Positions 7,501 through 28,500 of a stretch of DNA of 64,000 nt are shown here, in pieces. Origin of the DNA: a virus (lineage: Duplodnaviria > Caudoviricetes); IMG/VR virus record IMGVR_UViG_3300026077_000001; one strand, given 5' to 3'. The stretch's first letter is position 1. Every line of letters starts with the position of its first letter. The notes below the pieces were generated by a model that was not told the DNA's origin, searched no databases, and saw nothing but the letters and a program-made list of their open reading frames with translations. A program made the translations under genes and the position numbers.

Positions 7501-10500
7501 AGCACGGTCTTCTTGTTGGTGACACTGTTACTATCTACGGTGCAAACCCAACTGTGTTCAACGGTACGTTCCTAGTAACATCACGTATTAGTGATTTTAT
7601 CTTTGAGTATAACATTCCTGCACCTGCAGATGCTTCACCTCAAGGTAATATCCTCTTATCTGTTGACTTGAACAAAGGTAAGTCTCCAGAAGAGGGAATT
7701 AGTATTGCAATTAGAGATTTTACTACAAACGTACAGAATACATTCTTCAACAATACGTATGCTTACATAGCATCTTCTGGTATTCCTAACTATGAGGTTG
7801 GTCCTTTTGTTGGATCTGCACTACTTCCAGGTAACCAGCGTAAGTTAATCCGTATTCCTAGAGTTATCAATACGATTTCCAAACGTGATGATACCAACTT
7901 TGGTCCTATTGGTGCGTGGGTTAATGGTGTATCTGCGTGGTCATATAAGTCAGAAACCAAGATTAAGTATGGTGGTGTAATTGGAATTAATATTACTAAT
8001 GTTGGACAGGGATATGATGCAGCGAATCCTCCTATTATTGAAATTAGTGGAGGAAATGGTACAGGTGCTACTGCTAGTGTTGTTGTTAACGGACAATTAA
8101 GTGAAATTGATGTTTCTGCGGGGGGTACTGGTTACACTTCTAGTCCTCTTGTTTCTATCGTGGGTGGTGGTGGATTCGGTGCAACTGCTACTGCTGTTAT
8201 TACTAATGGTATAGTTTCTAAGATTCTTGTTGAAAACCCAGGTCAAGGATACACTTCTCAACCTGATGTCTCTATTTCAGGTGGAAATGGTACAGGTGCT
8301 ACCGCAACTGCACGTGTAAGAGGTCCAATTCAATCTGTAAGTGTAGATAATGCAGGTTCATCTTATACTGAATCTCCTACTATTAAGTTAAACTCTGGTG
8401 AAGGTGCTGTTGCACAAGCAATCATTATTAACGGTCGTATAGTTTCTATTGCTATCATTGCTGCAGGTAAGGGATATACCACTGCTCCTGAGATTGTAAT
8501 CAATGGTGATGGTTATGGTGCTGTTGCAAAAGCAAGTATTGGTACTGTTGGTGAAGATAGAGGTAAGGTCATTGGTGTTACTGTGGTCAATAGAGGTATT
8601 GGTTACACTACTGGACTCACAACTGTTAGATTAGAAGCAGTCGGTGAAATGGCAACATTTACTGCAAATGTGTTTGAGTGGACAAGAAACCTACAAGATG
8701 AGTTAGGTCAATCTTTCGATACAGCACGTGGTTACGTATTTGCAGGATATAACACTCAATATGGTGGTGAATACGCACATTTATCAGATCCTAAGCAGTT
8801 GCGTTATGTTTTGGGTGATAATGTCTTTAAGAACCAAGCAACACAACAATTACAAGAATTATCTACAGGATGGCAACACTCACCAATCCTCGGATGGGCA
8901 TTTGATGGTAACCCCATTTATGGTCCTTATGGTTACATAGATGCTACTGACCAGTCTTCTGGTATACGTCGTATTAGATCTTCTTACCGTATCAAGCCAA
9001 TTCTAATATATGACCTAGCAACCAACCCTAATCCAGTTCGTTCAGATGGTCCTTTACTAAGTGACTATCCTGCAGGTTCATTTATCGAAGATTTTGAGTA
9101 TACTTTCCAATATGGTGATCTAGACCAGTATAATGGTCGTTTCTGTAAGACACCTCAATTCCCTGAAGGTGTATACGCATACTTTATCTCAATTGACGCA
9201 TCTGATGCAGGTAATCCAGTATTCCCATATATTGCTGGTCCTCAGTTATATTCTAAGGCAGATGAGTGGAACTACAGTCAGGATGCTGTACAGACAAATA
9301 TTCCTGATGATGTTGTTCGTTTCCGTGATCCTTACGAAGATGTTGATATTGATATTGAACGTCAACCAAACCAAGACACTGATATCCTTGTAACTGAACT
9401 TGGTGAGGAACTTATCTTTGAAATTGAAGATACTAATAGAGACGGTGTAATCAATAACCTTGAAGATACTACACCAATCAATATCGCTGAAGAACCAGTA
9501 TTACAATTATTTGATTACTACCCTAGAGTCTCTACAAGATCTGAGGTGGATATTGATATTGAGACTACTACCAAGTTTGAGGATGCTCAGGTTGATGGAT
9601 TTGTTGTTGAGAACCCAGGTATCTCTTATAAGGTTGGTGACAAACTATATTTTGATAATACAGACACACAAGGATTTGGTGCATCTGCTAAGGTTAATTC
9701 AGTTAAAGGTCTTGATGTAGCAGGTTATTCGTCTTATATGACTAATGACGTACCTTACGGACAAATTACAACTGCTACTGAACACGAATTACGTGCTAAC
9801 GATGAAATTATCGTTAAGAGCACACCTGTTCTTGATGATACTAATAAAACTCTTAAAGTTAAGGTTATTGCTGGTGTAGAGCAATTAAACATTACACAGG
9901 AAGGTGTTGGTTATTCTTCTGAACTTCCTCCAACATATGAACTAATTTCTACAATTGGACAAGATTTCAAGTTAACTTTAGAAAGAACTGAAGCGGGTGC
10001 TGTTAAGAAAGCAAATATAATCAACTCTGGTTCTGGATATGACTCAACAAATCCACCTAAGATTCGTGTATCACATCCACAGAGATATAAGAAGGCAAAT
10101 TACTTCTTATCATTCTTGAATGAAGCAACTGGTACTGTTTCTATAAATGACGTTCAAGTTGCTGATGATCGTACTATCTACGTTGCTGCTGAAAGAAATC
10201 TTGCTGATGGTGATACTTGTGGTATTCTTGCTAAGTTTAATAGTGATGGTCGTTTACTTTGGCAGAGAACCCTAGTACCTACAGTACCTTCTGGTCCAAA
10301 ATCACTAAGATGGAAGTCTTTATATGTTGAGAATAGTAATCCTCATAATATCTACGTAATTGGTGAGACAGTTACTAACATCACAAATATTACTTACAAC
10401 CCAGATATTGTTGTTGCTAAGTATACTTCAGGATTTGATAATGCAAATAACCCTGATGGTATTCTTCAGTGGCAACGTGATATTGCTGGTATCTCTGGTG

Positions 10501-13500
10501 CTACAAGAAGAGATTATGCAACTACTATTTCATTAGATCAAGACGGTAGAACTATGATCGGTGGTTATACCGATGCTAACTCCTTGCAACCAGATGATAT
10601 GTGGGTTGCATTATTAGATCTTGATGGATCTATGATGGAGAAACGTAAGATTGCTTCTACTGATGTTAGTGAGCATTTACATCAGATAAAGTGGAAATCT
10701 AAGGATACCTTCCTATTCTGTGGTGTATCTGAACCTGATAATACATCTGACATCATAATTGGTGAAACTTATTATGATACTGCAACTATTGAGGTTGTAT
10801 GGTCTAAAAAAATCACTAATGCCAGTTATAAGTTTAAGAACCCAACATTCACCATTGATGAATATGGTGCTGTATATGTAACTGCTACAGCAGAAGATAC
10901 TAATGGTAAGGATTATGGTGTTTTATACACCAAGTTTGATGATGGTGACTTTACAGCAGCTGAGCAAAGTAGAATATTTGTTCCTACTGGAACCTATAAT
11001 GCTGTTCATAATGGTGGTGTAGAGTTTGATATCTTTGGTAATGTTGATGTATCTTGTTCTGTAGAAAGAGCATTTAATCAAGTTGAATCCACTACTCTTA
11101 AGATTGGTTGGAATACAGGTACAGTAATTACTGCTTCAACTGCAACTGAGACTGATGGTATTGGATTTAAAGCAATTGCTGTATCTAACGACAGTTCTGG
11201 TGACACAATTGTTGTTGGTAATAAGGTAGAAGCAGATCAGTTAGCGATATTTAACTGGAATACTGCTGATAACCTTGCTGATGACACATATAATGATACT
11301 CTTGCTACTGGAACTAACAAACAGTGGTATGCAACTGGTAATGCTGTAATTGATGATACTAAGAAGTATGATGGTGCTTCTTCAGTAAAACTAGATGCAT
11401 CTAATGCTATGACGATGCTCTATGGATCAGATGTTGCTACAAGCTATACTGTAGAAGCATTTTGGGCACTTTCAACTGCTCAGTATACTGCTGCTAACAC
11501 AAAACCAGAATTCTTCACTGTAACTGATGCTATAGGTAATACAGTTAAAGCTGGTCTTGATGCAGATCAGACAAGTCCCAACTATGGTAAGACTTGGATT
11601 GATATAACTGGTACTACAACATTCTCCACTGCTGCAAACTACCTAGCAATCTTTAATAACGAGGAGTTTATTCACGTTGCTTTAGTTAAAGATCGTGTAG
11701 GTGTTGGTGATTACAAGTATCGTGTATATGTTAATGGTATTGAAACACAGGTACTTACAAGTACAACAGTTGATATTAACCTTAAAGATGTAACAATTGG
11801 ATCTAATTCAACTCCTAACGCAACAAATAACTGGATTGGATGGATTGATAACCTAGTTGTCTCACCTACTGCTAAGTATGATGATACATTTACTTCTGCT
11901 TTAGTTACTGGTACTAATAGTATTGCACAAGGATTTGTTTATAAGATTGATAAGGACAAGACAGCATTAGGATCATTCAATCTTAACGATGTTGAGACAG
12001 GACATACCTTTAATATCGCCTCTGAGAGCAATTATACGTTTAATACCCAGAACGTTGCAATGAATCCTTGGACTATTGGTCCTGCTGGTATTCAAATTCT
12101 TGATTATGGTGATGTTATTTCTACACATCAGCCTGGTATATTCACTGTATCGTCAACAGATCAGTCATTTGGTAACAGAACTGCTACTATTCCGACTCCT
12201 GGTGGTAAGAAACTACTTCTTACAACGACTGTTGTACCAAAATTCTACTTTAGAGACGCAAAATATCAGTTAATTGACCTTGTTAAGACAATTAACTTCA
12301 ATCAGGCTGCTACTTTCACTAAGGGATCTATATTACAACAGTATTCAGTCATTGGTGGTAACGATGTTGTCTCTGGATATGGAACAATTGTTGAAGTTGG
12401 AACTCAATCTTGCAAGATTGGTAAGATTGCAGGTAGTTTTGACACTACAAAACTAGTAAAATCAACTGCTAATGATGTAAATGACCTTGAATGGAACTTT
12501 ACAGAGCAAAAGACTGACCCAATTTGGGCAACTAACTTTGTATATGCACAAGAAGACATAGTTTACAACGATAAGAAGCTATATCAGTGTACCTCTCCTG
12601 GTACATCTGGTACTATTGCACCTACTCATACAACTGGTATTGTATCTGATGGTGCTGTTTCTTGGGCATATTTGTCTGCATCTGGCATATATGAGGTAGA
12701 TTTAGCAAATACTTCATATAGTGGTTCTACTTTAGGTGCATTTGCTTCTTGGAAAGAATTCTCAGCTGAGGATTACACTATCAAGATCGAAGAAATATAT
12801 CAAGACTCTTCATTCATTAAAGGAGATACCATTGATGCCGATGCTGTTAATCTTCAGTTTGCTGTTGATGCTACTGGTAAGATTGCAACATTCACTGGTT
12901 TGACTGGTGTTAAGAAGATATCCTTGATTGCACAACTTAATAAGGACGTAATTCCTAGTGGTTCATTAGTAAATACTGACCTTGTTTACTGTTCTGCTTC
13001 TAGTAGACACAATTTTGTAGAAAATGAGATCATATTTACAGAGAACTTTGCTACAAATGACTATAATGGTTCGTTCTTCGTAGAAGAGGTCTTTAACTCA
13101 AGAGACTTCTCATTCCGTATGAGAGGTACTGCTGTACAGGATCCAACCTTTGCTGGTAGTGGAAATTCAGTATCTAACGTTAATATCTACGCAAAACATC
13201 CTAAATTCCTCTTTGTTAGAGGTCATCAGTACATATTTGACCTTGATGATGAATCTAACCTTGGATACTTCCTATCATTTTCTAGAGATAACCAGTATAA
13301 ACTGGAATATCCATTCATTAATATTATTAGAGAGGGTACACCTGGATTTACTGATGATGATTCACCAACTCCGTTGGTTAAATTCGTCATTAATGAGGAT
13401 GTTACTAATATTTCATATTACTTTGACCCATCTAGAACAGGTGCAGATTCACCAGTTGGAGAAGGATCCTTCATTGACGTTATTAAATCTCCTTATGATG

Positions 13501-16500
13501 GCACATTCAGAGTTACTTCTGTAACCGATGCTGGTAAAAAATTCGCCTTTAGACTATTAAATGAACCTGAAAAGACAAATGCTCCTGTTGGTAATAATGA
13601 ATTTGGCAATGCTCGTTCTTCTTACTCAACAACCTCAGTTAAGGCAATTGGTCCAATATCTGATATCAAACTTGTAAATGCAGGTGGATTCTATCAGAGA
13701 CTACCAATTGTTACTGATATTGCTTCTAACAGAGAAATTGAGAAGGTTAGAATCACAAATGGTGGTACTGAGTACGTAAATGGTGTTTACTATAACGTTC
13801 CTATTGATGGAGATGGTGAAGGTGCTATGTGCAACATCACTGTTCAAGATGACGGTGACTTTGAAGGTGTTATAACTGATGTTGTCCTTACATCTGCAGG
13901 TAAAGGTTATAAGACTGCTTCTATTGATGTAGATGCTATACCAGGTATCCTAGGACCTTTACTTGCAGGTTCTGGTGCAGTACTAGATGTTGTCATTCCT
14001 GATGAAGGATCAGGTGCATCTGTATTCTTACAAGGTAAATCAATTGGTAAGATCAAGAAACTTAAGAATAATGAGTTTGGTTTCGGTTATTCACACGATT
14101 ATACACTGAGACCTGAAATAACTTTCCCTGTGAACCTTCAGCTGTTTAATACCGCTTTACTCGCACAGATCAAGATAACTGACCCAGGTGCTGGATATAC
14201 TTCAGTTCCTGCTGTTGTAATTGAAGGTGGTGGTGGATCAGGTGCTAAGGCAGAAGCAATTGTTAAGAATAATCGTCTTTCTGAGGTTATTATTAAGGAT
14301 CCTGGCTCAGGATACAGTTCTGAACCTTCAGTTACACTTAAATCAGAATTTAACTACGTTGTTAACGTTGATTTAGGTTATTTACAGTTCAACTTCCCAC
14401 ACGGTATCACAACTGGTGCTGAAGTTCAGTTAAGAGCAGAAGACCTAGGATCAACCGTAGGTATTCTTCCAAAACCTAGTTCTGCAGGTTTGGTTAGCTT
14501 GAACTCAAATCAGACATACTATGCTATTGCTGGTGAAGCAAATTCACTTGAATCAGACCAATTACGTATCTCTCTAACCAAGTTAGATGCTGAATCTGGT
14601 TCTTATATCACATTCTTGACTCAAGGTGAAGGTAGACAGGTACTACTCACCGAGGTATTTGGTGGTAAAGCAACTGCTATCGTTGAAACTTCTAGATTCC
14701 TTGCAGGTGAACTTGTTTATCAGGGTACTTCACTTGAACTCGCATCTGCTACTGGTTATGTTTCTACTAACGAAGGTTGGCAGATTGGACCTAGAATCCT
14801 TAAACTTGAGAACTATGATGGTGTTTGGAGATCTGGAGAGCGTGTAACTGGTGAAGTTTCTCGTGCATCTGGTTTGATTGATAACCTATCAATCGCTACT
14901 GGTACACTGAATATTGCTTCTCTAACCAATACTCCTGGTCAATTTATCGATGACGTTGGTAAACCATCTGAAATTGTTCAAAAAATACAAGATTCTTACT
15001 TCTATCAGAACTTCTCATACGTTATTAAGTCTCAAACACCTATTAACCAGTGGAGAAAGCCTGTATTAGAAACAAACCACCCTGTTGGTTTCAACCTCTT
15101 CGGTGAACTAGCAATCACTGGTGGTAAGGATATTTCTGGAAGAAAGGTTGTATCTGACCTTATTAAAGAAGTTAATATCAATAGTTTCACTAATATTAAT
15201 CAAATTACATCATTTGCTAACGCACAACCCATTTATACTCAGTTTAATAATACTGAGGTACTGTTCAGACAGAAGAGATTAACTAACTCAGAGGAAATCT
15301 TAACCTCTATCGTTAAGAAGATTGATAACATCTCTGATGACTTTGATGGAATTAAAACCCAATTCCCTCTTAATGTAGAAGGTAGTTCCATAACTGCAGC
15401 AGATAATCAGATGTTTATCTTGATTAATGGTGTTGCACAGTCACCAGGTACTGCATTCTCAACAGCTGGACCTTCTGTTGTCTTTACTGAAGCACCTAAA
15501 GCACCTTCTAGAATTAAGTTCCGTGAAGCAGTTTATGCTCAGAAAGTAATCACTAGAATGACATTCAGTTCTATTGGTGGTATTTTCCCACTTTTAGGTA
15601 ATACTGTTCGTGGTTTGGTATCAGAAGCAACTGCAACTTGCATAGATTCAGGTGTTGACTATATTGACGTTATTGACATACAAGGAACCTTCCAACTTAA
15701 TGAAAGTATAATGGGTTCACAAACTGGATTCAATTCTACTTTAAGTGATGTTTCTCCTATAACTTCTAAGACTATCTACGAACAAGGTGAGAGAATCACT
15801 AATTTGGCTGGTAATTTTGCTATTATTGAAGAGAATAACTTACAAGATGGTGTTATTACTAATGAACTAGTTCTTTCACGTACTTCTGGTACTGCTAAGT
15901 ATGAGACTGGTGAATTTAATATCAAGTTCAATGATATCATTTATTCTGCACGTTCTAAGATTGCAGCAACTATTACAAGTATTGCACCTTATCAGGATGA
16001 TATATCTAACCAAATTATTGATCAGGTAGACCTATCACCTAGTTCTTCCTTCTTTGGATTAGTATTCCAGAGGGTACCTTCTATTACCTTCCCTAATAAG
16101 ATACTTGATAACATATCAGAAACAGTTATTAACCCTGTTGAACTATATGATCCTGAGACAGCTAATAACCAAGACTTCCTAGACTTTGAGAGAGTTCGTA
16201 ACCAAGAGATACGTTATGACAATTTAACTGGTACTGACTTTGCTGCTGGTTCTGACATTCGTCTTAAGAAGATTTACTTTGGTAATTCATCTCTAAGAAG
16301 GACTCACGATGTACGTCTTAATGATGCTTCTAACGCTTTGCAGCGTAATGCGAGATTTATCGCTGAAGAAGCCGTGGGAGCAATGTTAGATTTCTACCCC
16401 TCCTTCCAAATCAATACTGGTAGAAATGCAGATTGTGAAGATGATATTGTAGATGCTATCAATATGATGGCTTGGCAGTTAGAGTTTGATGGTAACTCTG

Positions 16501-19500
16501 AAGTTTGGGATATTGCTAATACTTACGTTCAAGGTAACACTGTATATCACGTTGATGGTGCTGAAGCTCAAACAGTTTGGGCAATGAATAAAGCACGAGA
16601 CTTAGCACTCCAGTGCATAAGAATGGAGGATATTGATACTTCATTTACTACATTACAGCAGTGGAGAGACTTAACTGTTACTGGTGAGTATAGTGTAACT
16701 GATAATAGTCACGCTGATGCTAGAGCACTATTACTTGCTAACAAGTGGTATATCGCTCACGAAGCATTGTATTATGCTAAACAACAGAATCCTGGTTATA
16801 CAGTATCTGGTGGTGACTCACATTGCTTGTCAGATATAGTTGATGTTGTTGAAGCAATTGCATATAACACTGCTGTTGGTGGTAATGACTTTGTTTGGGA
16901 AGCAACAGATCGTATTCTTCATTATGGTACTGTAACTGGTGATATCGATACTATGGTAGATGCCTTTACTAAGGCAAGAGATATAGCAATTAATGTTCAG
17001 AGGAACGTTGTATATGCCAAGCAAGATACTTCACACGGTTGGACACAATTTACTGATAGTGGTATTACTGCTGATGGTGCATCTCCTGCTTGTCAGGCAC
17101 CTGCTGCAACAATAACCACCCTAGCGAATATTCTGATTAATGCCCTAGGTACTACTGCATCACCTGGAACTAGAGCAGCATTCCAAGCTGGAACAACGAA
17201 GACTGAACCATCTACTGCTTTGATGGCAAATCCTTCTACAACTGCTTGTGTAAACGTAACATCTGCTATTACTAATTACTTTGCAATTATCACTGATTCA
17301 TTACAGGATCCAACTGGTGCTGCACCTGGAACTTATCCTTGGTCTATTTCAAATGTAACTAGAGTTGCACCTCCATATTCATTCAGTGATTCTGAGACAC
17401 TTAAGTCTATTAAGCACGCTTATAAAGATAAGTCTTCTGGTGGATTCTTTGTCTTCGGTGAAATTGTTAAAGGTATAACATCTGGATCTACTGCTGAGAT
17501 CATTGGTTCTAATGCAGGTAATAAGTGGATCTATAGTAAACAACCTTCAGGAGCATTCAATGATGGAGAATACATTACTAATAGTCTTTTAGTTAATACT
17601 AACGTAACTGTAGATAATTTAGATTATGCTGCTGGTGCTGGATCTCTTGAATTTAATGGTAGTGCATATCTAACACATCCATCTACTGAGAAAGTTGCAT
17701 TTGGTGATGGATCTATTCCTGATGGTAACTTCACTATAGAATTATGGGTTAAAGCAACAGGTGTTAGTGGTAACCAAACATTATTAGATTTCCGTACTTC
17801 AACTGGTGATACAAGTTCTGCTTACTTGATTATGGTCAATAACACTGTTCGTTGGAACACTGGTAATGTTGACAGAATAACATCAAGTGCAAATCTAGCA
17901 GCAAATACTTGGACTCATATCGCTATCGTAAGAAATAGTGGTGCTACAAATATGTACGTTGGTGGTACTAAGCAAACCACAACTTATACTGATAACACCA
18001 ATTATGGCAATATGCCAGTTAAGATTGGTGCTAATGCTGCTAATGCTCAAGCATTTACAGGTAATATGGAGAACCTAATGATTAAGTTAGGTTCTACTGC
18101 TGTTGATTATACTAGCGACTTTACTCCTAGTGGAACTTATGATGATACAGATATAAATCTTAAGTTTGGATTTAATGGTGAAGCACCTATTCCTATTATT
18201 AAGGGTGAAATTTATGCTACATTCCAACAAACTATAACTTCTACTGCTACTGCTGAGGGTGTAGAACTATGGCGTGATGAGATTATGACTGAGGGAGTTG
18301 ATCTTTCTCGTGATGATTATGTTGATTGTGCAGATATTATTGACAAGAACAAGTACTGGATTGCTGAAGAAGCAGTCGGTAGAATGAAGGCTATGTATCC
18401 TGACTTTGTGATACCTGGTGATACTGGTACTTCAGATCAAGGTACACAAACTTGCTTAAGAGATACTTATGAATACATTATACCTGCTATCGTTAATGAT
18501 CTAAGGTATGGTGGTAACTTTAATAGTATCGTTGCTGCAAGAGGATATCTTGCTAACCAAGAAGGACAATTAGCACACGTTAACGGAGAATTGCTTCAAT
18601 CCATCTATGCTTGGAGAGAAGTTGGTAAACTTTGCAATACTGTTATTACTGCTAATGCTGATGACCTAACTGGTGAGCATACAACACGTATTCGTATTCC
18701 TAACTACTTCTCATCTCCTGCAGCTGCTGGTATACAGACCTTTATTACTGATCTAGTAGATAGTTTACTATTAGTTCTTGGTCCTACAGGTAATAGATTT
18801 AGAGATGGTGCTGATTTACTATACTTCAACCGTAAGTGTATCGCTGATGAAGTTGCTTTCTGGTTAGAAGAACAGTATAACGTAACTATTAACTTCATTC
18901 AGGAAGATAAGTTTGACATTCCTGGTGGTACTCCAGGTCGTGATAAGTGTGTTCGTGACCTTAGAGATCATATTATACCTGCTATTGCTGGTGACTTATT
19001 AACTGGTGGTAATGCTAACGTTCAAGGTATTATTGATCAATACTTAGATTCTACAGGTAAGATCATTCAAGTTGAAGAAGAATTACTTCCAATGCTTGAT
19101 GCAATTGGTTACTCTAAGATGTTGATGGAGAAGGCACTACAGAATGCTTTAGTTGGACGTAGTGAAAACCTTGCAAATCTTGCTGGTACAACTGCTCAAA
19201 CTATTGACGACTTCTTCCAATTCCAATATACAGATTTCGCTGCATTCCGTAAGGATCAGGCAACTGAACCTACCTTCTTACACGATCCTCAAATCTATGC
19301 AGGTTCTCAGAGAGCATTAGATGCTGCTGATATGCTTGAAACTAATAAGCGTGCTATTGCAGGTGAAGCAGTTGATCTTATGCTTAAGTGTTCTGCATTT
19401 AAACATTATCACTTCAGTGTTAAAGGTGGTAAGAATCATTGTGAAGATGATATTGTTGACGTTATCGAAGCTATCATTCACGACCTTAGATTCAATTCTA

Positions 19501-22500
19501 ACTCTGCAACTTATGATGCAGCGATGTTATATCTGAATACTGAGAATGGACTGAAGCACGTTACTGATGAGACTGAAGAAACTGCCTTTGCTATGAAGAT
19601 GGCTAGGGATATGTCTGCTTTGGCGATCCAGAACAAGTTAGGGTTTAATCCCTACCCTGATTATTCTGCAGGTGGTGGAGCTGGTGGCGGTCAAGGTGGC
19701 GGTGGCGGCTTCGGTGGAGGTGGCGGTGGTCAAGGTGGTAACCAAGGTGGCGGTGGTGCAGCACGTGGTGATTATGATAATAATGAGTCTGGTAATAAGG
19801 CATATAACGCTGCTGATGAAATTAGAAATAACTTAAGATTTATTGCTTCTACTGCTGTTGGTCGTGGTGTTTCTCAGTACCCATCATTAGGATTTGGTGG
19901 ATATGGTTATCAGTCTTGTGTTGATGATTGTGTTGATATTTTAGAAGCATTGATATTCAACTTATCACACGGTGGTAATAACAAGATGTGGTATGCCACT
20001 GAGTTCTATGTTACTGATGCTAATGCTGTTCAGCATATCAATGGTCAACCAAATGAAGTTAAGTATGTATTTGAACAAGCAAGAGATATTGCTATTCAAG
20101 TAATGAGACAACAGTTAGTTGCTACTAATGGTTATACAGAAGGTGATCCAGTATATGATGATGAAATTACTATCGATCAACAAACTGCATCTGGTCAACA
20201 TACTCCAACAGCAGCAACTTATGATCCTGCAACTGGTGATTTAGTTTTAACTTTAGGTGCATCACACAATGTAACTACTAACGATACAATTAGAATTAAT
20301 ACAAATTCACTTGTATTCACTTGTGATCAAGATGATCATCAGACTCAACATACTTATCCAAGAATTTCCGACCCAGCAGCTGTTGCTTTACTACCCGTCA
20401 CGAACGTAAGTGGTAACGATATTACAGTCAATGTTGGTATAACAGAGAGAGTTAACTTTGATGCTAAAGATTCTACTTATGATCCTGAAACAGGTCTATT
20501 AACTCTTGATATTGGATCTCATAGTTTAAGAGAAGGTCAAACACTTAAGATTCTTCAGGATGAATTAAATTATCGTTGTTCTCAGGATAATTATAGATCT
20601 ATTCATAAGTATCCTCGTGCTACTGATCCAGCAGTTGATAAAGCATTAGATATCGTTTCAGTTGGAACAACTCACCATACAGCAACTTGGGCAGACTTCA
20701 ACCCTGTTACTGGTATGTTGAATGTTACCGTTCCTAATCACGGATTTAAGAATGGTGACAAGATTAGACTTGCTAACGATTCTATGACATTCACTTGTGA
20801 TATGGATGAGCATTACAGCAAGAAAACATATCCAAGACTGTCTGATCCTGCTAGTGGACGTTTCCTACCAATCTCAAACGTAACTAAGAATACTTTTGGG
20901 ATGAGTATTGGTAAGACTCCTATCAAATACTTCACACCATCTCAAGCAAACTATGATCCTGAAACAGGTGGTTTAGAACTCATACTTGGTGTACACGGTT
21001 TAACAACTGGTACTCATATTAAGTTAGCACCTAACTCCTTAACATTTACTTGTAAGGAAGATGATGATGCTACCTTCCACACATATCCAAGAGCTCAAAC
21101 AACTACTGTTACTCCATCTGATGCTTCTTACAATCCTGTTAATGGTCACTTAACTGTTACTGTTGCTAACCACGGATTCAAAGTTGGTGAAATGGTTCAC
21201 GTTGAGAAGAACGGAATTGTGATGACTTGTGATATGGACGGAAATGCTTCTGAGCATCCATATCCAAGACAAGATGACCCTGCAAACAATTCTTGGATGA
21301 GAATTGAAGCAGTATCTACAAATACATTTACCTTTAAAGTTGGTGAATCACCTAAAGTAAGTTTCACACCAACAGCAGTGGATTACACCCCTACTACTGG
21401 TGATATGAAGATGACCATTGGTAATCATAGTCTTACTGCAGGAACTGCACTTAAGATTGCTGAAGGTGGTATTACATTTACTTGTGCACAAGATAGTCAT
21501 CAAACTCTTCACCCTTATCCTAGAAATACAACTTATACAGTATCTGACATTAATAACGGTTCTTATGATCCTGAAACAGGAATAATGACCGTTACAACTG
21601 CTGCTAATCACGGTCTTCAGGATGGTGATAAAGTTAAGTTTGCTGATGGTGCTATTACATTTACTTGTTCTATGGACGGTAATGGTTCTAACCATCCATA
21701 TCCAAGATCAACTGACCCTGCATCTGGTAAGTGGTTAGAGATTGATGTAACTGGTAATACAACATTTACTGTTAATGTTGGTAAGACTCCTACTGTTGGA
21801 TTTGCTCCAACAATGGTTGATTACAATCCAACAACAGGTTTAATGACATTGACCATTGGACAGGGACATAATTTATCTGTTGGTCAATCTGTAAGGTTCT
21901 CTCAGAATTCACTTACATTCAAATGTGCCTTTGATAATTATGCTACTGATCACTCATATCCTCGTGCTTCAGGTCAAGGTGGTGCTACTCAAGATGACCC
22001 ATTCTATGATACTGCTTGTGCAATTACTCAGACTACAGCAGACACAATTACAGTTCAAGTTCTAAGTTCACAACCATCTACTAACACAACTGCTCATACT
22101 TGGCAGGCTCCTACTAAGTTAACTCCAACTGGAGCATCATATAACCCATCAACAGGTGTTATGTCTCTTACTGTTACTGGACACGGTATGGTAAATGGAG
22201 ATCATATTAAAGTTGATGATAATTTTGTAACCTTTACTTGTGGTCAAGATAGTGATCAAACTAATCACTCATATCCAAGACCAAAAGATCCTGTATCTAA
22301 TAAGTTTATTCCTATCACATACATTGATGCTAATACCTTTAGTATTCAAGTTCTAGAGAATGTACCTTCAACCAATACTACAACTCACAACTTTGTAAGT
22401 GCTGTTGCTAATAGTATTGAGAGATGTGTTGTAAGAGCTGGTGGTATTTACACACACGCTTATGTTTCTTCAACTGCTGGTTCTCTAACTGCTAAGAAAG

Positions 22501-25500
22501 ACCAAACATACGATTCATCAGTTAACATTAAGTACGAAGGTACTCCAATGACTGCTGCAAGTGGTACTACTTACAGTGGAACTACAGGTATTCTTGAGGT
22601 AACAACATCTGCTAATCACGGATTAGTTGTTGGAGATTATGTTAAGTTAAGAGATGGTGCAGTAACCTTTACTTGCTTAGAAGATAGTAATTCTTCTAAC
22701 CATCCTTATCCAAGAGCAACTGATCCAATTAGTGATAAGTGGATTAGAGTTATGACTGTTCCAAATGCAACTACATTTAGTGTACAAGTATTAGATGCTA
22801 TTCCATCTTCAAATACTACAACTCACACATTTGTTTCTGGTCTATCTAACGGAATTATTAAAAAGGATGATACTATTACAGTTAATGTTGGTATCTCTTC
22901 TAATACAACTGCTCATATCTTTAAGGAAGCAGTACCTGCTTGTATAACAACAGGTGGTAACTACACTCACACATTCGTTCGTGCTGAAACTAATTGTATT
23001 ATTAAGTCTAAAGACCCTGTATATGGTAACTCTTTAGAAATTACAGGTACAACTGCTACTTCTATTACTCTAAACGTTTTACCAGTTGTTCCATCTACTA
23101 ACGTAACTCAGCATACATTTATATCTGCCACAAATAATTGTGTAACTACTGGTGGTAATTACAGTCATAAGTTTATTTCTGCTGAGAAGGATGGTGTAGA
23201 ACTAGAATCTGGTTCTGTTACTGTTAACGTTGGTACAACACCTGCTGTATTCTATAGCGTTGGTGATGCTAATTATGATGGCGAAACTGGCGATATGATG
23301 ATTAAGGTTGGTGCTCATAAGTTAATCGATGGTACTACTATTAAGATTGCAGATGAAGCATTAACATTCACCTGTGATATGGATAGTCACGCTTCAGAGC
23401 ACGTTTATCCACGTCTAACTGACCCTGCTAGAAACACTGCTTTAAAAATAAAAGAGTCAAGTTCTAACTCTCATACTATTACTGGTGCAACTTATACTCC
23501 TACAAGTGGTGTATTAACTGCAACTATTAATAATCACGGATTCCAGTCTAAGCGTACAATATCTCCAACCTTTGCTAAGTTCGATCCAGCAACAGGTGAT
23601 TTGGAAGTTTATTCTGCAGACAACAGACTTGCTGTTGGTGATAGTGTAATGATCGATGATGGTGCTATTACATTCAGATGTTCTAAAGACCAATACAGTT
23701 CAACTCACCCATATCCAAGATCAACTGACCCTGCATCAGGAACTTACTTAATAGTTAAGAAAGCATCTAGAAATAGATTCACAGTTAATGTTGGATCAAA
23801 TGCTTTAGGTGGTGCTATCTCTGATCAGAGTATTCACGTATTCGAAGCATCTAATGGTAATAGTATTCACGTTGCTCCTACTTTAGTTAAGTTTGATCTT
23901 AATTCAATTACATTCAATTGTACTAAGGATAGCAACGCTACTAACCACACATATCCAAGAGCAGATGATCCAGAAGCAGGACATTGGTTAGAAGTTCTAT
24001 CAACACCTGATGCCAATACATTCACCTGTAATGTTGGTATTGCTGGTGGTGGTAACTTTGCCCATACATTTGTTGGTGCTACTGCTGGTGGATTAAAAGA
24101 ACAGACTGGATGGGTTACTGTTAACGTTGGTGCTACTCCTTCAACTGGACATACAGTTTCTACTGCTAACTTCAACGCAATTACAGGTACAATGGTACTT
24201 GGTATAGGTAACCATTACTTTAACAAGCACGACAATATTAGAATTTCACCTGATTCATTAACATTTACTTGTGGATTAGATAGCAACCAGACAAATCATA
24301 CTTATCCAAGAGCAAATACTGTAGTAACTCAACCAACAGCAGCATCATATGATCCTGAAACTGGATATATGCTTCTAACATTGAACAACCACGGATACTC
24401 TAATGGAGACTTCGTTAAGTTTGAGTTAAATGCATTTACATTTACTTGCACAATGGATAACAATGGTTCAAGCCACACATATCCACGTGCTACTGATCCT
24501 ACTTACGGTAAGTGGTTACCAGTAGAGGATGTACAAGCAAATACATTTAAAGTTCAAGTTGGTAAAACACCAACTACAGGATTTGAACCTATCTCTGTAA
24601 GTTACAACCCAACTTCAGGTGTTATGGAGATGGAGATTGGTGAGCACGAATTTACTACTAATCATAAGATTCGTATCGCTGCTAACTCATTAAACTTCAG
24701 ATGTGCTCAGGATAATTATCAAACAGATCACTTATATCCACGTATCGGAGATCCTACTTATCAGTCATCTGTTCCTATTATTGCAACAACACCTACTACA
24801 ATTTCTGTACAGGTTCTTGCTTCACAACCTTCTACAAACACTACAACTCATCAGTTTGTACAGCAAGTAGGTAAGACACCAACTGATATTAATTACAATC
24901 CTATTACAGGTGTTATGACTGTGACTATTGCTAATCACGGTTATAACGATGGTGATATGATCAAGATCGCTGAGAACTCACTCACATTCACTTGTGATAA
25001 AGATAGTCACGCTAGTGATCACGTTTATCCAAGAAGAACAGATCCATTCTGGGATAAGTGGATGGTAATTGATACTGTTACTCAGGATACCTTCAATGTT
25101 AAGGTTCTTGAGACTGCACCTTCTACAAATACTTCAACACATATCTTTAAGTCTTGTACTGCTAATTGCATAACAAGATCTGCAATCAGAGGTGGTGGTA
25201 TTTACACACATACCAATACTGGAATTGCTTCTGGAGGTATGATCCATAAGAAGGATCCATTCTATCAGCGTGGAATTAACATTGATCAAGTTGGATACAC
25301 TACTCATACTGTAACCAATGCTAAGTATAACCCCAATACTGGTGTGATGAATCTCACCATACCGAATCACGGGTTTACTACCTCTCTCCAAAAGACAGTA
25401 ACTGGTGCTACTTACGATGTAACAACCAGTATGTTAAGGATAACAAGTGCTGCTCACGGAATGAAGAATGGTGACAGAGTAAGAATTGCTGATAATTCTA

Positions 25501-28500
25501 TTACATTCACTTGTGCTCAAGATGGTAATGCTACAAACCATTCTTATCCAAGACCAAGTGATCCTGCATCTCAACGTTTCTTAGTTGTTACTAACGCAAG
25601 TACCAATACATTTGAAGTTAACGTTGGTAATTTCTTCGGTAGAGGTCCAATTTCTAACCAGACTGCTCATACATTTGTATCTGCAACTACTGGTGGACTT
25701 GAAGTTGCAAGAGATAGTATTAAGATGGCTGAAAATTCCATCACATTTACTTGTGCTAGAGATGATAATGAAACACTTCACTCATATCCAAGAGAAAATG
25801 ATCCTTCATATGATGAGTATCTACCAATTTCTAATGTAGGTACAAACGATTTTGATGTATATGTAGGACACGCTAACCTTGATAAGACAGTTCATCAGTT
25901 TGTATCTGCTACTTCTAATGGTATTCATCATCTTGATGGAACAATTACAATCAACGTTGGTATTTCTTCTAACACTACAACTCATAACTTCGTCAATCAA
26001 CAGACAACTTGGACACCTAGCAGTGCTGCATACAACCCAACAACAGGTGTTATTACGTTAACTGTTAATAATCATAAGTTCTATGAAGGTGAGTACATTT
26101 ATCTTGCTGATAATGCAGTAACTTTCCGTTGTGATCAAGATGGTCAAGCATCTGACCACGCTTATCCACGTAGTACTGACCCTGCATCTGGAAGAATGCT
26201 TCGCATTTCTAACGTAACTACTAACACATTTGATGTGAAGGTATTAGATGTAACTCCTTCTACAAACACTACAACTCACGTATTCCAGTCTGCTGCTGCT
26301 AATTCAATCACCAAACCTCAAGTACTTGGTGGTGGAGTTTATGAGCACAAGTATGTAAGTTCTAAGGGAATGGCAGTACGTAGTGGTGGACTTTATACAC
26401 ACGTATTTGAAGGACCAACTAAGAAGACAGTAACTAATGCTTCATACTTACCTGCTACAGGTATTATGACAGTTACAGTTCCTGATCACGGATGGAGTAA
26501 TGGTGATGGAATTATCCTTGATGATTATTCATTAGTCTTTACTTGCTTAGAAGATAGTAACAATACTGAGCACCCATATCCACGTCCAACTGATCCATTC
26601 AGTAATAGAGTTATGACGATTTCTAACGTCACAACTGACACATTTACTGTACAGGTTCTAGCATCTGCTCCTTCTACTAACACTACAACTCATACATTTG
26701 TGAGTGCTACTACTCACGGAATTAGAAGAGCAGCAGTACACACTGGTGGTGCTTATGCTCATACCTTCATTAGTTCTCAGAGTAATGCTGTTACCTCATT
26801 TACAGGTGGTGGTGCTGCACGTTGTAGCAATGAAGCATCTGCTATTACTACATTGATGAATATTCCTATCAATCTGTTTGGTTCTGGTGTTAGTAATCCT
26901 GATGCATACATTGGTGGTATTACAAGAACTCTACCAGGCGAATGGCCACTAACAGGTGAACGTGCTGCAATTCGTGATTTAACAATCACTTATGACTCTG
27001 CTGGTAATGGTGAGTGTGCTGTTGTTGGATCTCAAATAATGCAGTTATTTAATTATCCAATTAATGTTATTGACACTGCTGCTCAAGGTAATGGTAATTG
27101 GTTTACTAATCAATCTGTCTTTAGACAGGCTCCACTTCAAAATAATACATTACAATCTGGTGGTGGTATTTGTTATAACGTAGTATCTGCTTCTAATACA
27201 TTAGCAGATATGATTAATATGACACTTGGTCGTGCACCTGAAATGTATCGTCAGGCAGCAAGATTGATATGGTTCAATGATCAGTATATTGATCGTGAAT
27301 CATATTACAAGACTATGCAAAATTATGGTGGATATACAGGAGACGAATCATTCGCAACTAATATCCGTAAAGCATTGATATATGACTTAATTACTGATGG
27401 TAATATCAAAACTCTCGAATTAGTTAACAGTTGGTTTGATGCCGAGGGTAACTTCATAGCGTTCCCTAATATCTTCAGAACATATCTGTTGTATCATACT
27501 GCTGCTGTTAAAGATATGACACTTAAAGTTCTTCAACAAAAAGCAGATAATCCTGGTCCTTATAACCAAGAGGTACCATATGAGAATCGAGAACTACGTC
27601 CTACTGAAACAGCACAACATAAGGTTTGGCAGTTATTCCACTTAATTGAAGTTGCACTTGAGAGATCAACTCTACCTACAGCTTACCTTAAGTTCCAATT
27701 TAATGTTGGAACTATGGTTAATACTGATGGTTCTATTGATGCTCCTAATGGACATTTATTCCAAGCATATGATCGTGTTACTTACACAGTTCTAGGTTCT
27801 GCTATTGCTGAACTAGACAGGCAAGTATATTTCATTCACCCAGATACTACTGAAAATCTAATATGGATTTCAGAATACATTGATGGTGATAAGATTGAAT
27901 TATTATCTCCAGGAACAGCAGGTCAAGTTCATACATTATCTGTAGTTGATGAGACTGGTATACATCGTACTCCATCAACATTTGGTGAGCGTAATGTACC
28001 AACACCTATTTCTGGTGGTATACAACCTGCAGATATATTCTTCGGTGATACTACTGGTGCATATGCTGAAGTTATTAGAATACAAGATAACTGGGCTAAG
28101 GTTCTTTATAATGTCATTTACTTACCACTTACAGTTACTAGCGATCCTGAAGTATTTGTTAATGGTGAGGAAGTTGTTAAGACTGGTGCTACAGGAAATA
28201 AAGGAACCATCCTTGCAACAGATAATTCTACTTACATTAAGTTAGTTCTTACTGGTGGTAACATTGTACAAGGAGATAATATTGAAGGATTAACATCTGG
28301 TGCTCAAGGTACTGTTAGTGATGCTACCCATAAGCGTATATTAGTTAACTTTAGAATGGGTGAATTTATTGCAACTGATCTATTATTCAGTAAGCAAGAT
28401 TCTGGTAGAGCAAATGCACTTATCGTACGTAATAATGATGGTGCTCTACTTGATAACCAGTCAGGTCGTGTAACATTTGATATTGAGACTGTTACTGGTA

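What the first reader, a model, noticed from the sequence alone, without database searches (positions are those of the whole stretch)
20200..26790. Russian-doll protein: repeat modules nested inside each other like parentheses
The array is not a simple tandem. Modules are interrupted at three fixed points and completed kilobases later. (a) After NHG: halves at 23472-23547 and 25305-25380 resume at about 23873 (LVKFDLNSITFNC) and 25707 (SIKMAENSITFTC), each after one whole inserted module. (b) After YPR: three modules stop at about 21090, 21520 and 24310, and exactly three orphan DP-halves appear at about 22495 (KKDQTY), 23005 (KSKDPVY) and 25245 (KKDPFY), matching last-opened, first-closed order. 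(c) After DP..I..V, closed later by orphan TITVNVG strands. This implies a branched, tree-like 3D architecture built by recursive domain insertion. I am not aware of a description of this for a phage protein.
Basis: partly seen in the sequence, partly recalled or inferred. Interest (0 to 1): 0.82.

Follow-up and report, generated by a model that had tools for sequence, protein, structure and literature searches.

The report
Nested barrel domains, giant phage protein
A giant (8,596-residue) baseplate-region protein of a marine cyanophage carries 21 copies of a small beta-barrel domain, seven of which are split open and have further copies of the same domain inserted inside them up to four levels deep, a rare "domain within domain within domain" architecture so far described mainly for cyanobacterial RNA polymerase.

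Summary
Window 4587-30377 (+) is one 8,596-aa ORF, a cyanomyovirus giant virion protein at the T4 gp7 position. Residues 5207-7404 hold 21 copies of a ~77-aa module with no Pfam family. A module HMM gives 14 full hits and partial hits that are exactly complementary: 1-24/28 with 25/27-77, and 1-54 with 53-77. My parse of all pieces, including four orphan "TITVNVG" strands, is a perfectly nested typed-bracket string (chance 9e-5), four levels deep.

In 120 homologous giant proteins, breaks cluster at four loops (HMM positions 23, 41, 54, 68). Order there is last-opened-first-closed: 370 of 458 continuations, null 178±9. Separated halves co-vary like halves of contiguous modules. A 62%-identical ortholog has the window's contiguous module 16 split at two of these sites, a natural insertion polymorphism.

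AlphaFold2 on natural alignments gives pLDDT 93 and 90 (pTM 0.82, 0.84). In the three-level model a split module superposes on contiguous solved barrels (phi92 endosialidase, Z 8.8, 1.9 Å) across model residues 71-285, skipping the guest.

The closest analogue is the recursive HABAS/SBHM insertion in cyanobacterial RNA polymerase Si3. I found no description for a phage protein. Function is inferred only. The scan's only other notes on this are on the same genome.

The parts
4587..30377 (+). Giant ORF, 8,596 aa (P0001). Cyanomyovirus giant virion structural protein at the T4 gp7 position, downstream of PAAR, gp25-like and gp6-like genes.
   Evidence: homologue annotated gp7 in P-SSM4
20205..26798 (+). 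Array of 21 beta-barrel modules, aa 5207-7404: 14 contiguous and 7 split.
20463..20681 (+). Module 2, N-part (a b c*). It lacks the last strand and hosts everything up to nt 23198.
   Evidence: HMM 3-70; parse
23199..23234 (+). Orphan last strand ELESGSVTVNVG, read as closing module 2. It is followed by the normal inter-module linker TTPAVFYS.
   Evidence: order test; not shown in 3D
20937..21092 (+). Module 4, N-part (a b). It stops after YPR.
   Evidence: HMM 1-54
23001..23198 (+). Closer of module 4 (c, HMM 53-77, KSKDPVY...ITLNVL) plus its d and e strands.
   Evidence: E 3.5e-4
21369..21524 (+). Module 6, N-part (a b). It stops after YPR and hosts modules 7, 8 and 9.
   Evidence: HMM 1-54
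22494..22556 (+). Short c* closer of module 6 (KKDQTYDSSVNIKYEG). It reopens at the hairpin turn and hosts module 10.
   Evidence: not found by the HMM; paralogue of aa 6888-6908
22857..23000 (+). Orphan strand IKKDDTITVNVG, read as closing module 6, plus d' and e strands.
23259..23477 (+). Module 11, N-part (a b c*). It hosts module 12.
   Evidence: HMM 3-74; AF2 model m1ad35918f485
23478..23564 (+). Module 12, N-part (the a hairpin, ends NHGF, plus linker).
   Evidence: HMM 2-28; part of the discontinuous barrel in the AF2 model
23565..23867 (+). Module 13 plus d' strand: a complete guest barrel inside module 12.
   Evidence: HMM 1-77; VIA-align model range about 99-208
23868..24095 (+). Module 12, C-part (b c d').
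   Evidence: HMM 27-77; VIA-align range 71..285 on contiguous barrels
24096..24131 (+). Orphan strand KEQTGWVTVNVG, read as closing module 11.
   Evidence: strand at model residues 280-290, pLDDT about 94-96; conserved KKQxGxITxNVG in 20 of 20 homologous super-modules
24156..24311 (+). Module 14, N-part (a b). It stops after YPR and hosts modules 15, 16 and 17.
   Evidence: HMM 2-54
25248..25310 (+). Short c* closer of module 14 (KKDPFYQRGINIDQVG). It reopens and hosts module 18.
   Evidence: HMM 53-74, E 0.023
25311..25397 (+). Module 18, N-part (the a hairpin plus linker).
   Evidence: HMM 1-24
25398..25700 (+). Module 19 plus d': a guest inside module 18.
   Evidence: HMM 1-77
25701..25925 (+). 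Module 18, C-part (b c d').
   Evidence: HMM 25-77
25926..26015 (+). Orphan strand HHLDGTITINVG, read as closing module 14, plus a d' strand.
24588..24878 (+). Module 16 plus d. It is contiguous here but split at the NHG and YPR sites in the 62%-identical ortholog L007.

Best explanation
Residues 5207-7404 of the giant baseplate-region protein are built from one lineage-specific beta-barrel module of about 77 residues, plus an extra 'd' strand. This module has been repeatedly inserted into loops of other copies of itself.

Four loops accept guests:
- after the NHG turn (HMM position 23);
- after FTC(D) (position 41; not used in this window);
- after YPR (position 54);
- the turn of the last hairpin (position 68).

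A guest is a whole module, or a string of modules, that leaves and re-enters the host through two adjacent strands. The host barrel still closes, and the chain forms a tree instead of beads on a string. My parse of the window is:
- m1;
- m2{m3, m4{m5, m6{m7 m8 m9}{m10}}};
- m11{m12{m13}};
- m14{m15 m16 m17}{m18{m19}};
- m20; m21.
The maximum depth is four. At top level only six units lie in series: a single barrel, clusters of 9, 3 and 6 barrels, then two singles.

Shown here: the sequence grammar, its conservation and variation among homologues, co-evolution of separated halves, and confident AF2 models in which a split module forms one barrel.

Inferred only: the nesting makes a compact, rigid, bushy arm on each baseplate wedge. 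That arm would display many copies of a barrel that resembles glycan-binding and inserted barrels, probably for host-surface contact. Gain and loss of guests at the four loops would be a route for varying it.
For: - Complementary HMM half-hits lie at fixed positions.
- In 120 homologues, break points cluster at HMM 22-24, 40-41, 53-54 and 68-69, with closers starting at matching positions. These positions fall between predicted strands.
- The stack parse of 115 homologues gives 370 of 458 continuation hits matching the top of the stack (null 178±9) and 25 crossings (null 77±8).
- There are 343 fully closed hosts. Depth is at least 3 in 56 of 120 proteins.
- The window's own token string is valid, with chance 9e-5.
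- Direct-coupling analysis was trained only on 1,044 contiguous modules. The outer N-part scores better with its own distant C-part than with the guest's C-part in 64 of 103 cases (NHG site), 61 of 69 (FTC site) and 27 of 38 (YPR site). Wilcoxon p ranges from 4e-3 to 3e-10. Held-out contiguous modules give 77-86% in the same test.
- In ortholog L007, the window's contiguous module 16 is interrupted at the NHG site by a'{F}b'c'd' and at the YPR site by a full module. The flanks are collinear.
- Clean ab|F|c and three-level a|aB|F|Bc|bc cases occur in homologues.
- AF2 models, each built on an alignment of natural sequences with the same nested layout: 190 aa, pLDDT 93.4, pTM 0.82; 293 aa, pLDDT 90.2, pTM 0.84.
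- VIA-align places contiguous barrels on the second model: phi92 endosialidase residues 257-340 and E1 FCCH residues 216-295. They align 76-77 residues across model residues 70/71 to 283/285, at Z 8.8 and 8.0 and rmsd 1.9 and 2.5 Å. Other barrels align to the guest alone, at residues 99-208.
Against: - Everything is in silico. I could not read model coordinates, so the reunion of the halves is inferred from alignment ranges, pLDDT and pTM.
- The two halves offered as separate chains gave no verdict.
- The third YPR closer (aa 5970) is not detected by the HMM.
- The nine-residue orphan strands cannot be assigned to hosts by co-variation: the last-opened-first-closed assignment ranked 9th of 24.
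- In the family-wide parse, 63 continuation hits are orphans, 25 cross and 151 openers stay unclosed. These are probably detection limits, but that is not proven.
- Oligomeric state and function were not tested.
Confidence: 0.86

Rival explanations
1. Linear mosaic. The partial modules are decayed or recombined fragments in an ordinary tandem array (beads on a string or a fibre). They do not rejoin in space, and the bracket-like order is a by-product of segmental duplication.
For: - Two large blocks of the window are paralogous duplicates, so few independent events underlie the pattern.
- Some family-wide hits are orphans or cross.
- One closer is undetectable by the HMM.
Against: - The break points are exactly complementary and confined to four loops in hundreds of cases.
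- Separated halves co-vary almost as strongly as the halves of contiguous modules.
- The ortholog polymorphism has collinear flanks.
- The partial pieces are conserved at module-like levels and align over all 77 columns when rejoined.
- AF2 places the pieces with pLDDT above 90, and one split module matches contiguous barrels.
Confidence: 0.06
2. Interdigitated or domain-swapped array. Pieces are completed by strands of neighbouring modules rather than by their own distant half, giving a continuous sheet-like assembly rather than discrete nested barrels.
For: - In the three-level model, two 11-residue strands (model residues 63-73 and 280-290) run across the host-guest boundary.
- Recursive HABAS insertions in Si3 are reported to swap elements (PMC11515920).
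- The role of the extra 'e' strands (GGxYTHxFVS) is unresolved.
Against: - Both the guest and the split host superpose on complete single barrels with 76-79 aligned residues at 1.9-2.9 Å.
- Coupling favours a module's own distant half over the adjacent guest's half.
Confidence: 0.05
3. Obligate homotrimeric fibre. The module strands assemble between three chains, as in many phage fibres, so monomer models and the domain-insertion reading are misleading.
For: - Homologous regions are annotated as tail fibre in several phage records and in phrog_5342.
- The conserved His, Cys and Asp residues recall metal sites on fibre axes (from my own knowledge of T4 gp37).
Against: - Monomer AF2 models are confident and compact, and they match monomeric barrel folds.
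- The gene sits at the position of gp7, which is a single-copy wedge protein in T4 (plus established T4 knowledge).
- A trimer was not tested.
Confidence: 0.03

Closest known systems
Si3 insertion of cyanobacterial RNA polymerase beta' (recursively inserted HABAS / sandwich-barrel hybrid motif domains)
   Same: One small beta-rich domain type is inserted into copies of itself over several levels. Nine HABAS domains and a six-level nest are reported in PMC11515920, PMC13114784 and PMC10895346. Hosts serve as guests and vice versa.
   Different: - The fold and sequence family are unrelated: no RNA polymerase chain is among the top 50 structural matches.
- It sits in a virion protein, not an enzyme.
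- There are 21 modules here and over 1,100 in the 120 homologues.
- Four defined insertion loops are used.
- Guests often come as strings of two to four modules in one loop.
- Gain and loss polymorphism is visible between orthologs.
Generic A1-B-A2 domain insertion (discontinuous domains; survey in PMC13114784)
   Same: The host sequence is interrupted in a loop by a complete guest domain, and the host still folds.
   Different: The survey reports that most insertions are single-level and 65.8% lie between different superfamilies. Here host and guest are the same family, and the process is recursive.
Beta-barrel domain of phage endosialidases (phi92 4hiz, K1F 1v0e) and the FCCH domain of ubiquitin E1
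   Same: These are the best structural matches to the module (Z 7.5-8.8, 76-79 residues, 1.9-2.9 Å). There are weak summed Pfam E1_FCCH matches. From my own knowledge, both are themselves inserted domains in their proteins, and the endosialidase barrel binds sialic acid.
   Different: - Sequence identity is only 12-20%.
- Z lies in the range the tool warns may reflect a common arrangement.
- Neither is repeated or nested.
- The module's conserved motifs (YxPxTG, NHG, FTC, HxYPR, DP) are its own.
T4 gp7 baseplate wedge protein
   Same: Gene position: after the PAAR, gp25-like and gp6-like genes and before gp8-10-like genes. There are PHROG 'baseplate wedge subunit' matches in the N-terminal part. 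The P-SSM4 homologue is annotated gp7.
   Different: It is eight times longer than T4 gp7 (1,032 aa, from my own knowledge). The nested array has no T4 counterpart. Orthology with gp7 was not tested by structure.
Tandem Ig-like, PKD or Big-domain arrays of phage fibres and bacterial adhesins
   Same: Many copies of a small beta domain sit in a surface-exposed giant protein.
   Different: Those arrays are strictly serial, with one linker between neighbours. Here a third of the modules are discontinuous hosts, giving a branched topology.

Membership tests
Domain-insertion (discontinuous host / nested) architecture | The two pieces of a host are complementary in profile coordinates. | tested here: met
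   HMM 1-24/28 with 25/27-77, and 1-54 with 53-77. The family-wide break-point histogram agrees.
Domain-insertion (discontinuous host / nested) architecture | The guest is a complete, independently foldable domain. | tested here: met
   Full 1-77 hits lie between the halves. The guest aligns alone to complete solved barrels.
Domain-insertion (discontinuous host / nested) architecture | The order of opening and closing is properly nested. | tested here: met
   The window's token string is valid, chance 9e-5. In 115 homologues, 370 of 458 continuations match the top of the stack against a null of 178±9.
Domain-insertion (discontinuous host / nested) architecture | The host pieces form one domain in three dimensions. 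| tested here: met
   In silico only. A contiguous 84-residue barrel aligns 77 residues over AF2 model residues 71-285, at Z 8.8 and 1.9 Å. Co-variation of the halves agrees.
Domain-insertion (discontinuous host / nested) architecture | Presence/absence polymorphism of the guest between orthologs. | tested here: met
   Module 16 is contiguous in the window and split at two sites in L007.
RNA polymerase Si3 HABAS/SBHM family | Sandwich-barrel hybrid fold, or homology to RNA polymerase beta' insertions. | tested here: not met
   No RNA polymerase or SBHM chain is among the top 50 VIA-align matches, and there is no Pfam match. It works like Si3 but is not a member.
E1 FCCH (PF16190) / endosialidase-type beta-barrel | A Pfam match above threshold in a single stretch, or clear structural homology. 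| tested here: inconclusive
   PF16190 gives a summed 34.7 bits over the array, but no single stretch passes and only profile positions 3-25 match. Structural Z is 7.1-8.8, near the tool's background level of 7-8.
T4 gp7-type baseplate wedge protein | Synteny with gp25/gp6 and gp8-gp10, and homology of the core. | tested here: inconclusive
   Synteny is met. There are PHROG baseplate-wedge hits in the N-terminal part. No structural comparison with gp7 was made.
Trimeric phage fibre repeat | Inter-chain assembly of the repeat. | not tested
   Only monomer models were made.

The most novel reading that the evidence does not exclude
The four insertion loops form a natural grammar by which cyanomyoviruses grow, prune and reshuffle a branched bush of barrel domains on each baseplate wedge. 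On this reading, guest gain and loss between close relatives (as at module 16 in L007) is a host-range or adsorption-tuning mechanism. The family would also be the largest and deepest natural case of one domain recursively inserted into itself: over 340 closed hosts in 120 proteins. That would make it a model system for how proteins tolerate recursive insertion.
Probability: 0.3. Interest if true: 0.82.

Novelty: new variant of a known kind. Interest (0 to 1): 0.7.

Why it matters
- **A second example of recursion.** Recursive insertion of a domain into itself is very rare. The recent survey of 2.7 million domains highlights cyanobacterial RNA polymerase as its six-level example of deep nesting (PMC13114784). 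This family adds an unrelated and much larger example, with defined insertion loops and living polymorphism. It can be used to study how discontinuous domains fold, how repeat arrays evolve beyond tandem duplication, and how to design branched proteins.
- **Annotation.** The result explains why these giant cyanophage proteins defeat ordinary repeat and domain annotation. There is no Pfam family, and half-hits look like fragments.
- **Cyanophage structure.** It predicts that a 2,200-residue stretch of the largest virion protein of abundant marine cyanophages is a set of compact clusters rather than a long fibre. This matters for interpreting baseplate cryo-EM maps and host recognition.

Tried and rejected
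- **Half-modules as separate chains.** I offered the a-half and the bc-half of module 12 to complex prediction with their alignments. The result was no verdict (score 0.09, pLDDT about 50). This is not evidence either way.
- **Sequence search of solved structures.** No hit.
- **Foldseek against the PDB.** Nothing at E <= 0.001.
- **First VIA-align search, two-level model.** It matched only the guest domain. The model ended before the host's d' strand, so it gave no information on the host.
- **Co-variation assignment of the four orphan last strands.** The nested assignment ranked 9th of 24, so the test has no power.
- **Own genome.** The genome search 'own' failed because the assembly is not held.
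- **Module elsewhere in the window.** The module HMM hits only the giant ORF.
- **Recent self-copying as the origin of host-guest pairs.** Modules are all about 40-55% identical to each other, with no host-guest pair standing out. The events are therefore old and the copying mechanism cannot be read from this window.
- **Literature.** Searches for a prior description in phages found none.
- **Model coordinates.** They are not exposed in the Python box, so no contact map could be computed.


Full report
**What the region is.** The finding lies inside a single open reading frame, window 4587-30377 on the + strand, encoding 8,596 residues (P0001).
- PHROG profiles identify it as the giant "virion structural protein" of T4-like cyanophages (phrog_701). 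Parts of it match "baseplate wedge subunit" and "tail fiber" families.
- The upstream genes are PAAR-like, gp25-like and gp6-like. The downstream genes match baseplate wedge and fibre-connector families. The gene therefore occupies the T4 gp7 position, and the P-SSM4 homologue is annotated gp7.
- tblastn finds the repeat region in 321 cyanophage records (Synechococcus, Prochlorococcus), all below 60% identity.
- The module has no Pfam family. Only sub-threshold or summed matches to Cthe_2159 and E1_FCCH appear.
- A profile search of 1.84 billion cluster representatives finds only 730 proteins at E <= 1e-3. This is a narrow, lineage-specific family.

**Checking the observation.** I split the region by its motifs and built a 77-position HMM from 14 contiguous modules. 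The consensus is PTAASYNPTTGVLTVTVANHGLKNGDKVKLADNSLTFTCDQDSNASDHSYPRATDPASGKLLPIENVTANTFTVQVL. Searching the protein with it gives:
- 14 full hits;
- two hits that lack the last strand (HMM 3-70 and 3-74);
- three hits covering HMM 1-54 (aa 5451, 5595, 6525);
- two hits covering 53-77 or 53-74 (aa 6141, 6888);
- two hits covering 1-28 or 1-24 (aa 6299, 6909);
- two hits covering 27-77 or 25-77 (aa 6433, 7042).

The third "DP-half" (aa 5970) is too weak for the HMM. It is the collinear counterpart of the piece at aa 6888 in a duplicated block: 48% identity over 385 positions, against 35% for a control.

Four pieces lack the final strand, and four orphan "xxTITVNVG" strands follow later. Each orphan strand is followed by what normally follows a complete module.

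Written as typed brackets, the 16 events form a valid last-opened-first-closed string. Only 9e-5 of shuffles do so, or 3.6e-3 if a|F|bc units are kept intact. The parse is:
- m1;
- m2{m3, m4{m5, m6{m7 m8 m9}{m10}}};
- m11{m12{m13}};
- m14{m15 m16 m17}{m18{m19}};
- m20; m21.

When the seven split modules are rejoined in a script for alignment only, five align over all 77 columns. For m2 and m11 the aligner left the orphan last strand unplaced. All seven are 40-55% identical to other modules, as the contiguous ones are.

**The family.** I retrieved 120 giant homologues and 16 viral-contig loci.
- Orthologs at 62-99% identity keep the window's topology.
- Across the homologues there are about 1,150 full modules and about 500 openers.
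- Break points pile up at four places only: HMM 22-24, 40-41, 53-54 and 68-69. Closers start at matching positions. All four places lie between predicted strands.
- A stack parser finds 370 of 458 continuation hits matching the top of the stack. The null from order shuffles is 178±9. Crossings number 25 against 77±8.
- There are 343 fully closed hosts. 114 of 120 proteins have at least one, 38 reach depth three and 18 reach depth four.
- Homologues contain textbook cases such as ab|full module|c with a full-quality c piece, and three-level a|aB|F|Bc|bc strings.
- Orphans and unclosed openers remain (63 and 151). I attribute these to the short pieces being hard to detect, but that is not proven.

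**Natural insertion polymorphism.** In L007 (62% identity), the ortholog of the window's contiguous module 16 keeps the same a hairpin and the same c-d end.
- After NHG it carries an extra a'{full module}b'c'd' unit.
- After YPR it carries an extra full module.
- The flanking modules are collinear.

Whole modules have therefore been gained or lost at exactly the predicted loops between related phages.

**Do the halves belong together?** I could not fold artificially rejoined sequences, so I used two other routes.

The first route is co-evolution.
- A mean-field coupling model was trained only on 1,044 contiguous modules. It recovers barrel-like contacts: 13-76, 14-73, 15-30, 18-70, 22-64 and 66-73.
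- For one-guest nests, the outer N-part scores better with its own distant C-part than with the guest's C-part in 64 of 103 cases (NHG site), 61 of 69 (FTC site) and 27 of 38 (YPR site). The reverse swap does similarly badly.
- In a related within-protein control, own halves beat mismatched halves of other split modules of the same protein in 129 of 178, 42 of 44 and 31 of 38 cases.
- Held-out contiguous modules cut at the same positions prefer their own half over the neighbouring module's in 77-86% of cases. Split modules therefore behave nearly like intact ones.

The second route is structure prediction on natural alignments of segments with the same topology.
- The a|F|bc segment aa 6297-6486 (48 sequences) gives pLDDT 93.4 and pTM 0.82.
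- The three-level segment aa 6224-6516 (22 sequences) gives pLDDT 90.2 and pTM 0.84. The orphan strand is modelled as an 11-residue strand at pLDDT about 94-96.
- Coordinates are not exposed, but VIA-align ranges are informative.
- In the second model, the contiguous phi92 endosialidase barrel (residues 257-340) aligns 77 residues over model residues 71-285, at Z 8.8 and 1.9 Å. E1 FCCH (residues 216-295) aligns 76 residues over model residues 70-283, at Z 8.0. Other barrels align to residues 99-208, the guest.
- A compact domain of 80-84 residues can span 215 model residues at that rmsd only if the aligned residues are the two pieces of module 12 with the guest skipped.
This also shows that 'd' is an integral strand of the barrel.

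**Sub-claim (c).** The orphan last strands are supported in four ways.
- The bracket order holds.
- In 20 of 20 homologue cases, a module lacking its last strand precedes an a|F|bc nest, and a conserved KKQxGxITxNVG follows the nest.
- The strong 66-73 coupling shows that the last two strands form a hairpin whose turn is the insertion point.
- Two equal-length long strands run across the host-guest boundary in the model.

I have no alignment range that shows module 11 closing, and co-variation has no power for nine residues.

**How it most likely works.**
- Shown: one module family, four permissive loops, recursive nesting, and conservation together with polymorphism.
- Inferred, geometry: a guest carries a trailing d strand or linker strand that brings its C-terminus back next to its N-terminus, so it can sit in a loop. 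Strings of guests in one loop must return to their starting point. The 2,200 residues would therefore form compact clusters of 9, 3 and 6 barrels plus three single barrels, rather than a 21-bead rod.
- Inferred, function: the barrel resembles the endosialidase barrel domain and other small six-stranded barrels, at Z values the tool warns are only moderately informative. Given the baseplate context, the most likely role is a rigid, multivalent surface-contact or spacing element of the wedge periphery. I put this at roughly 45%.
- The module's invariant C39, D42, Y50-P51-R52 and D55-P56, and near-invariant H20 and H48, may form a structural metal site. This was not tested.

**Comparison with what is known.** Domain insertion is common. 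Deep recursion of one family into itself is not. The clear precedent is the Si3 insertion of cyanobacterial RNA polymerase beta', with nine recursively inserted HABAS/SBHM domains and a six-level nest (PMC11515920, PMC13114784, PMC10895346). The phage module is not a member of that family: no structural or profile match was found. It works the same way, on a much larger scale and with several insertion loops. I found no description of this architecture in phage proteins. The library searched is incomplete, so this is absence of evidence.

**Verdict.** The class is a new variant of a known kind. Interest is 0.7: a striking, family-wide and testable example of recursive domain insertion in an abundant group of marine viruses, resting so far on computation only.

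Noticed in passing
window 20205-26798 (every module): Each module keeps an invariant Cys39, Asp42, Tyr50-Pro51-Arg52 and Asp55-Pro56, and a near-invariant His20 and His48 (alignment A5). This could be a structural metal site repeated about 21 times per chain. Other first-stage notes on this genome raise the same idea.
   Followed up: no
window 18318-18476 (aa 4578-4630), with related units from about aa 3950 to 5200: A Pfam Phycobilisome-protein (PF00502) match scores above the curated cut-off (27.6 against 22.2 bits). It lies inside a series of helical repeats marked by CEDDIVD or CxRD motifs, at aa 3950, 4623, 4788, 4952 and 5111. Many homologues carry the same precomputed Pfam hit. A phycobiliprotein-like fold in a cyanophage baseplate protein is odd.
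   Followed up: partly
window 19671-19757 (aa 5029-5057): A 29-residue Gly-rich low-complexity tract (GGGAGGGQGGGGGFGGGGGGQGGNQGG...) lies just upstream of the last helical repeat and the barrel array.
   Followed up: no
window 22428-22493, 22941-23000, 23139-23198, 25182-25247, 26319-26429, 26733-26798: Extra 'e' elements (xxxGGxYTHxFVSxxx) follow the d strand of some modules. They resemble the d strand (TTHTFVSA), and module 20 has two. No model made here covers them, so their structural role is unexplained.
   Followed up: no
L007:10043-14548 (aa 3350-4853 of its giant ORF): This 62%-identical ortholog has about 590 more residues than the window over the same stretch. The cause is additional nested modules, including a|a|F|bc|b| inside the ortholog of module 16, and an extra split unit near aa 4599-4730.
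   Followed up: partly
L011-L016 (for example L011:5825-18463): A different giant protein, only 28-29% identical over the query, also shows a|F|b| and a|F|bc nests. The nesting habit therefore travels with the module into other proteins.
   Followed up: no
window 37274-44488 and 44996-51337: Two further very large ORFs of 2,404 and 2,113 aa lie in the same structural cluster. They match phrog_358 (unknown function) and phrog_697 (structural protein). Neither contains the barrel module.
   Followed up: partly
window 8691-9197 (aa 1369-1537) and 17685-18086 (aa 4367-4499): The same protein carries a YHYH domain (PF14240, E 3e-29) and a concanavalin-A-like Laminin_G_3 domain (PF13385, E 9e-18). 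Both are consistent with a surface-contact role.
   Followed up: no
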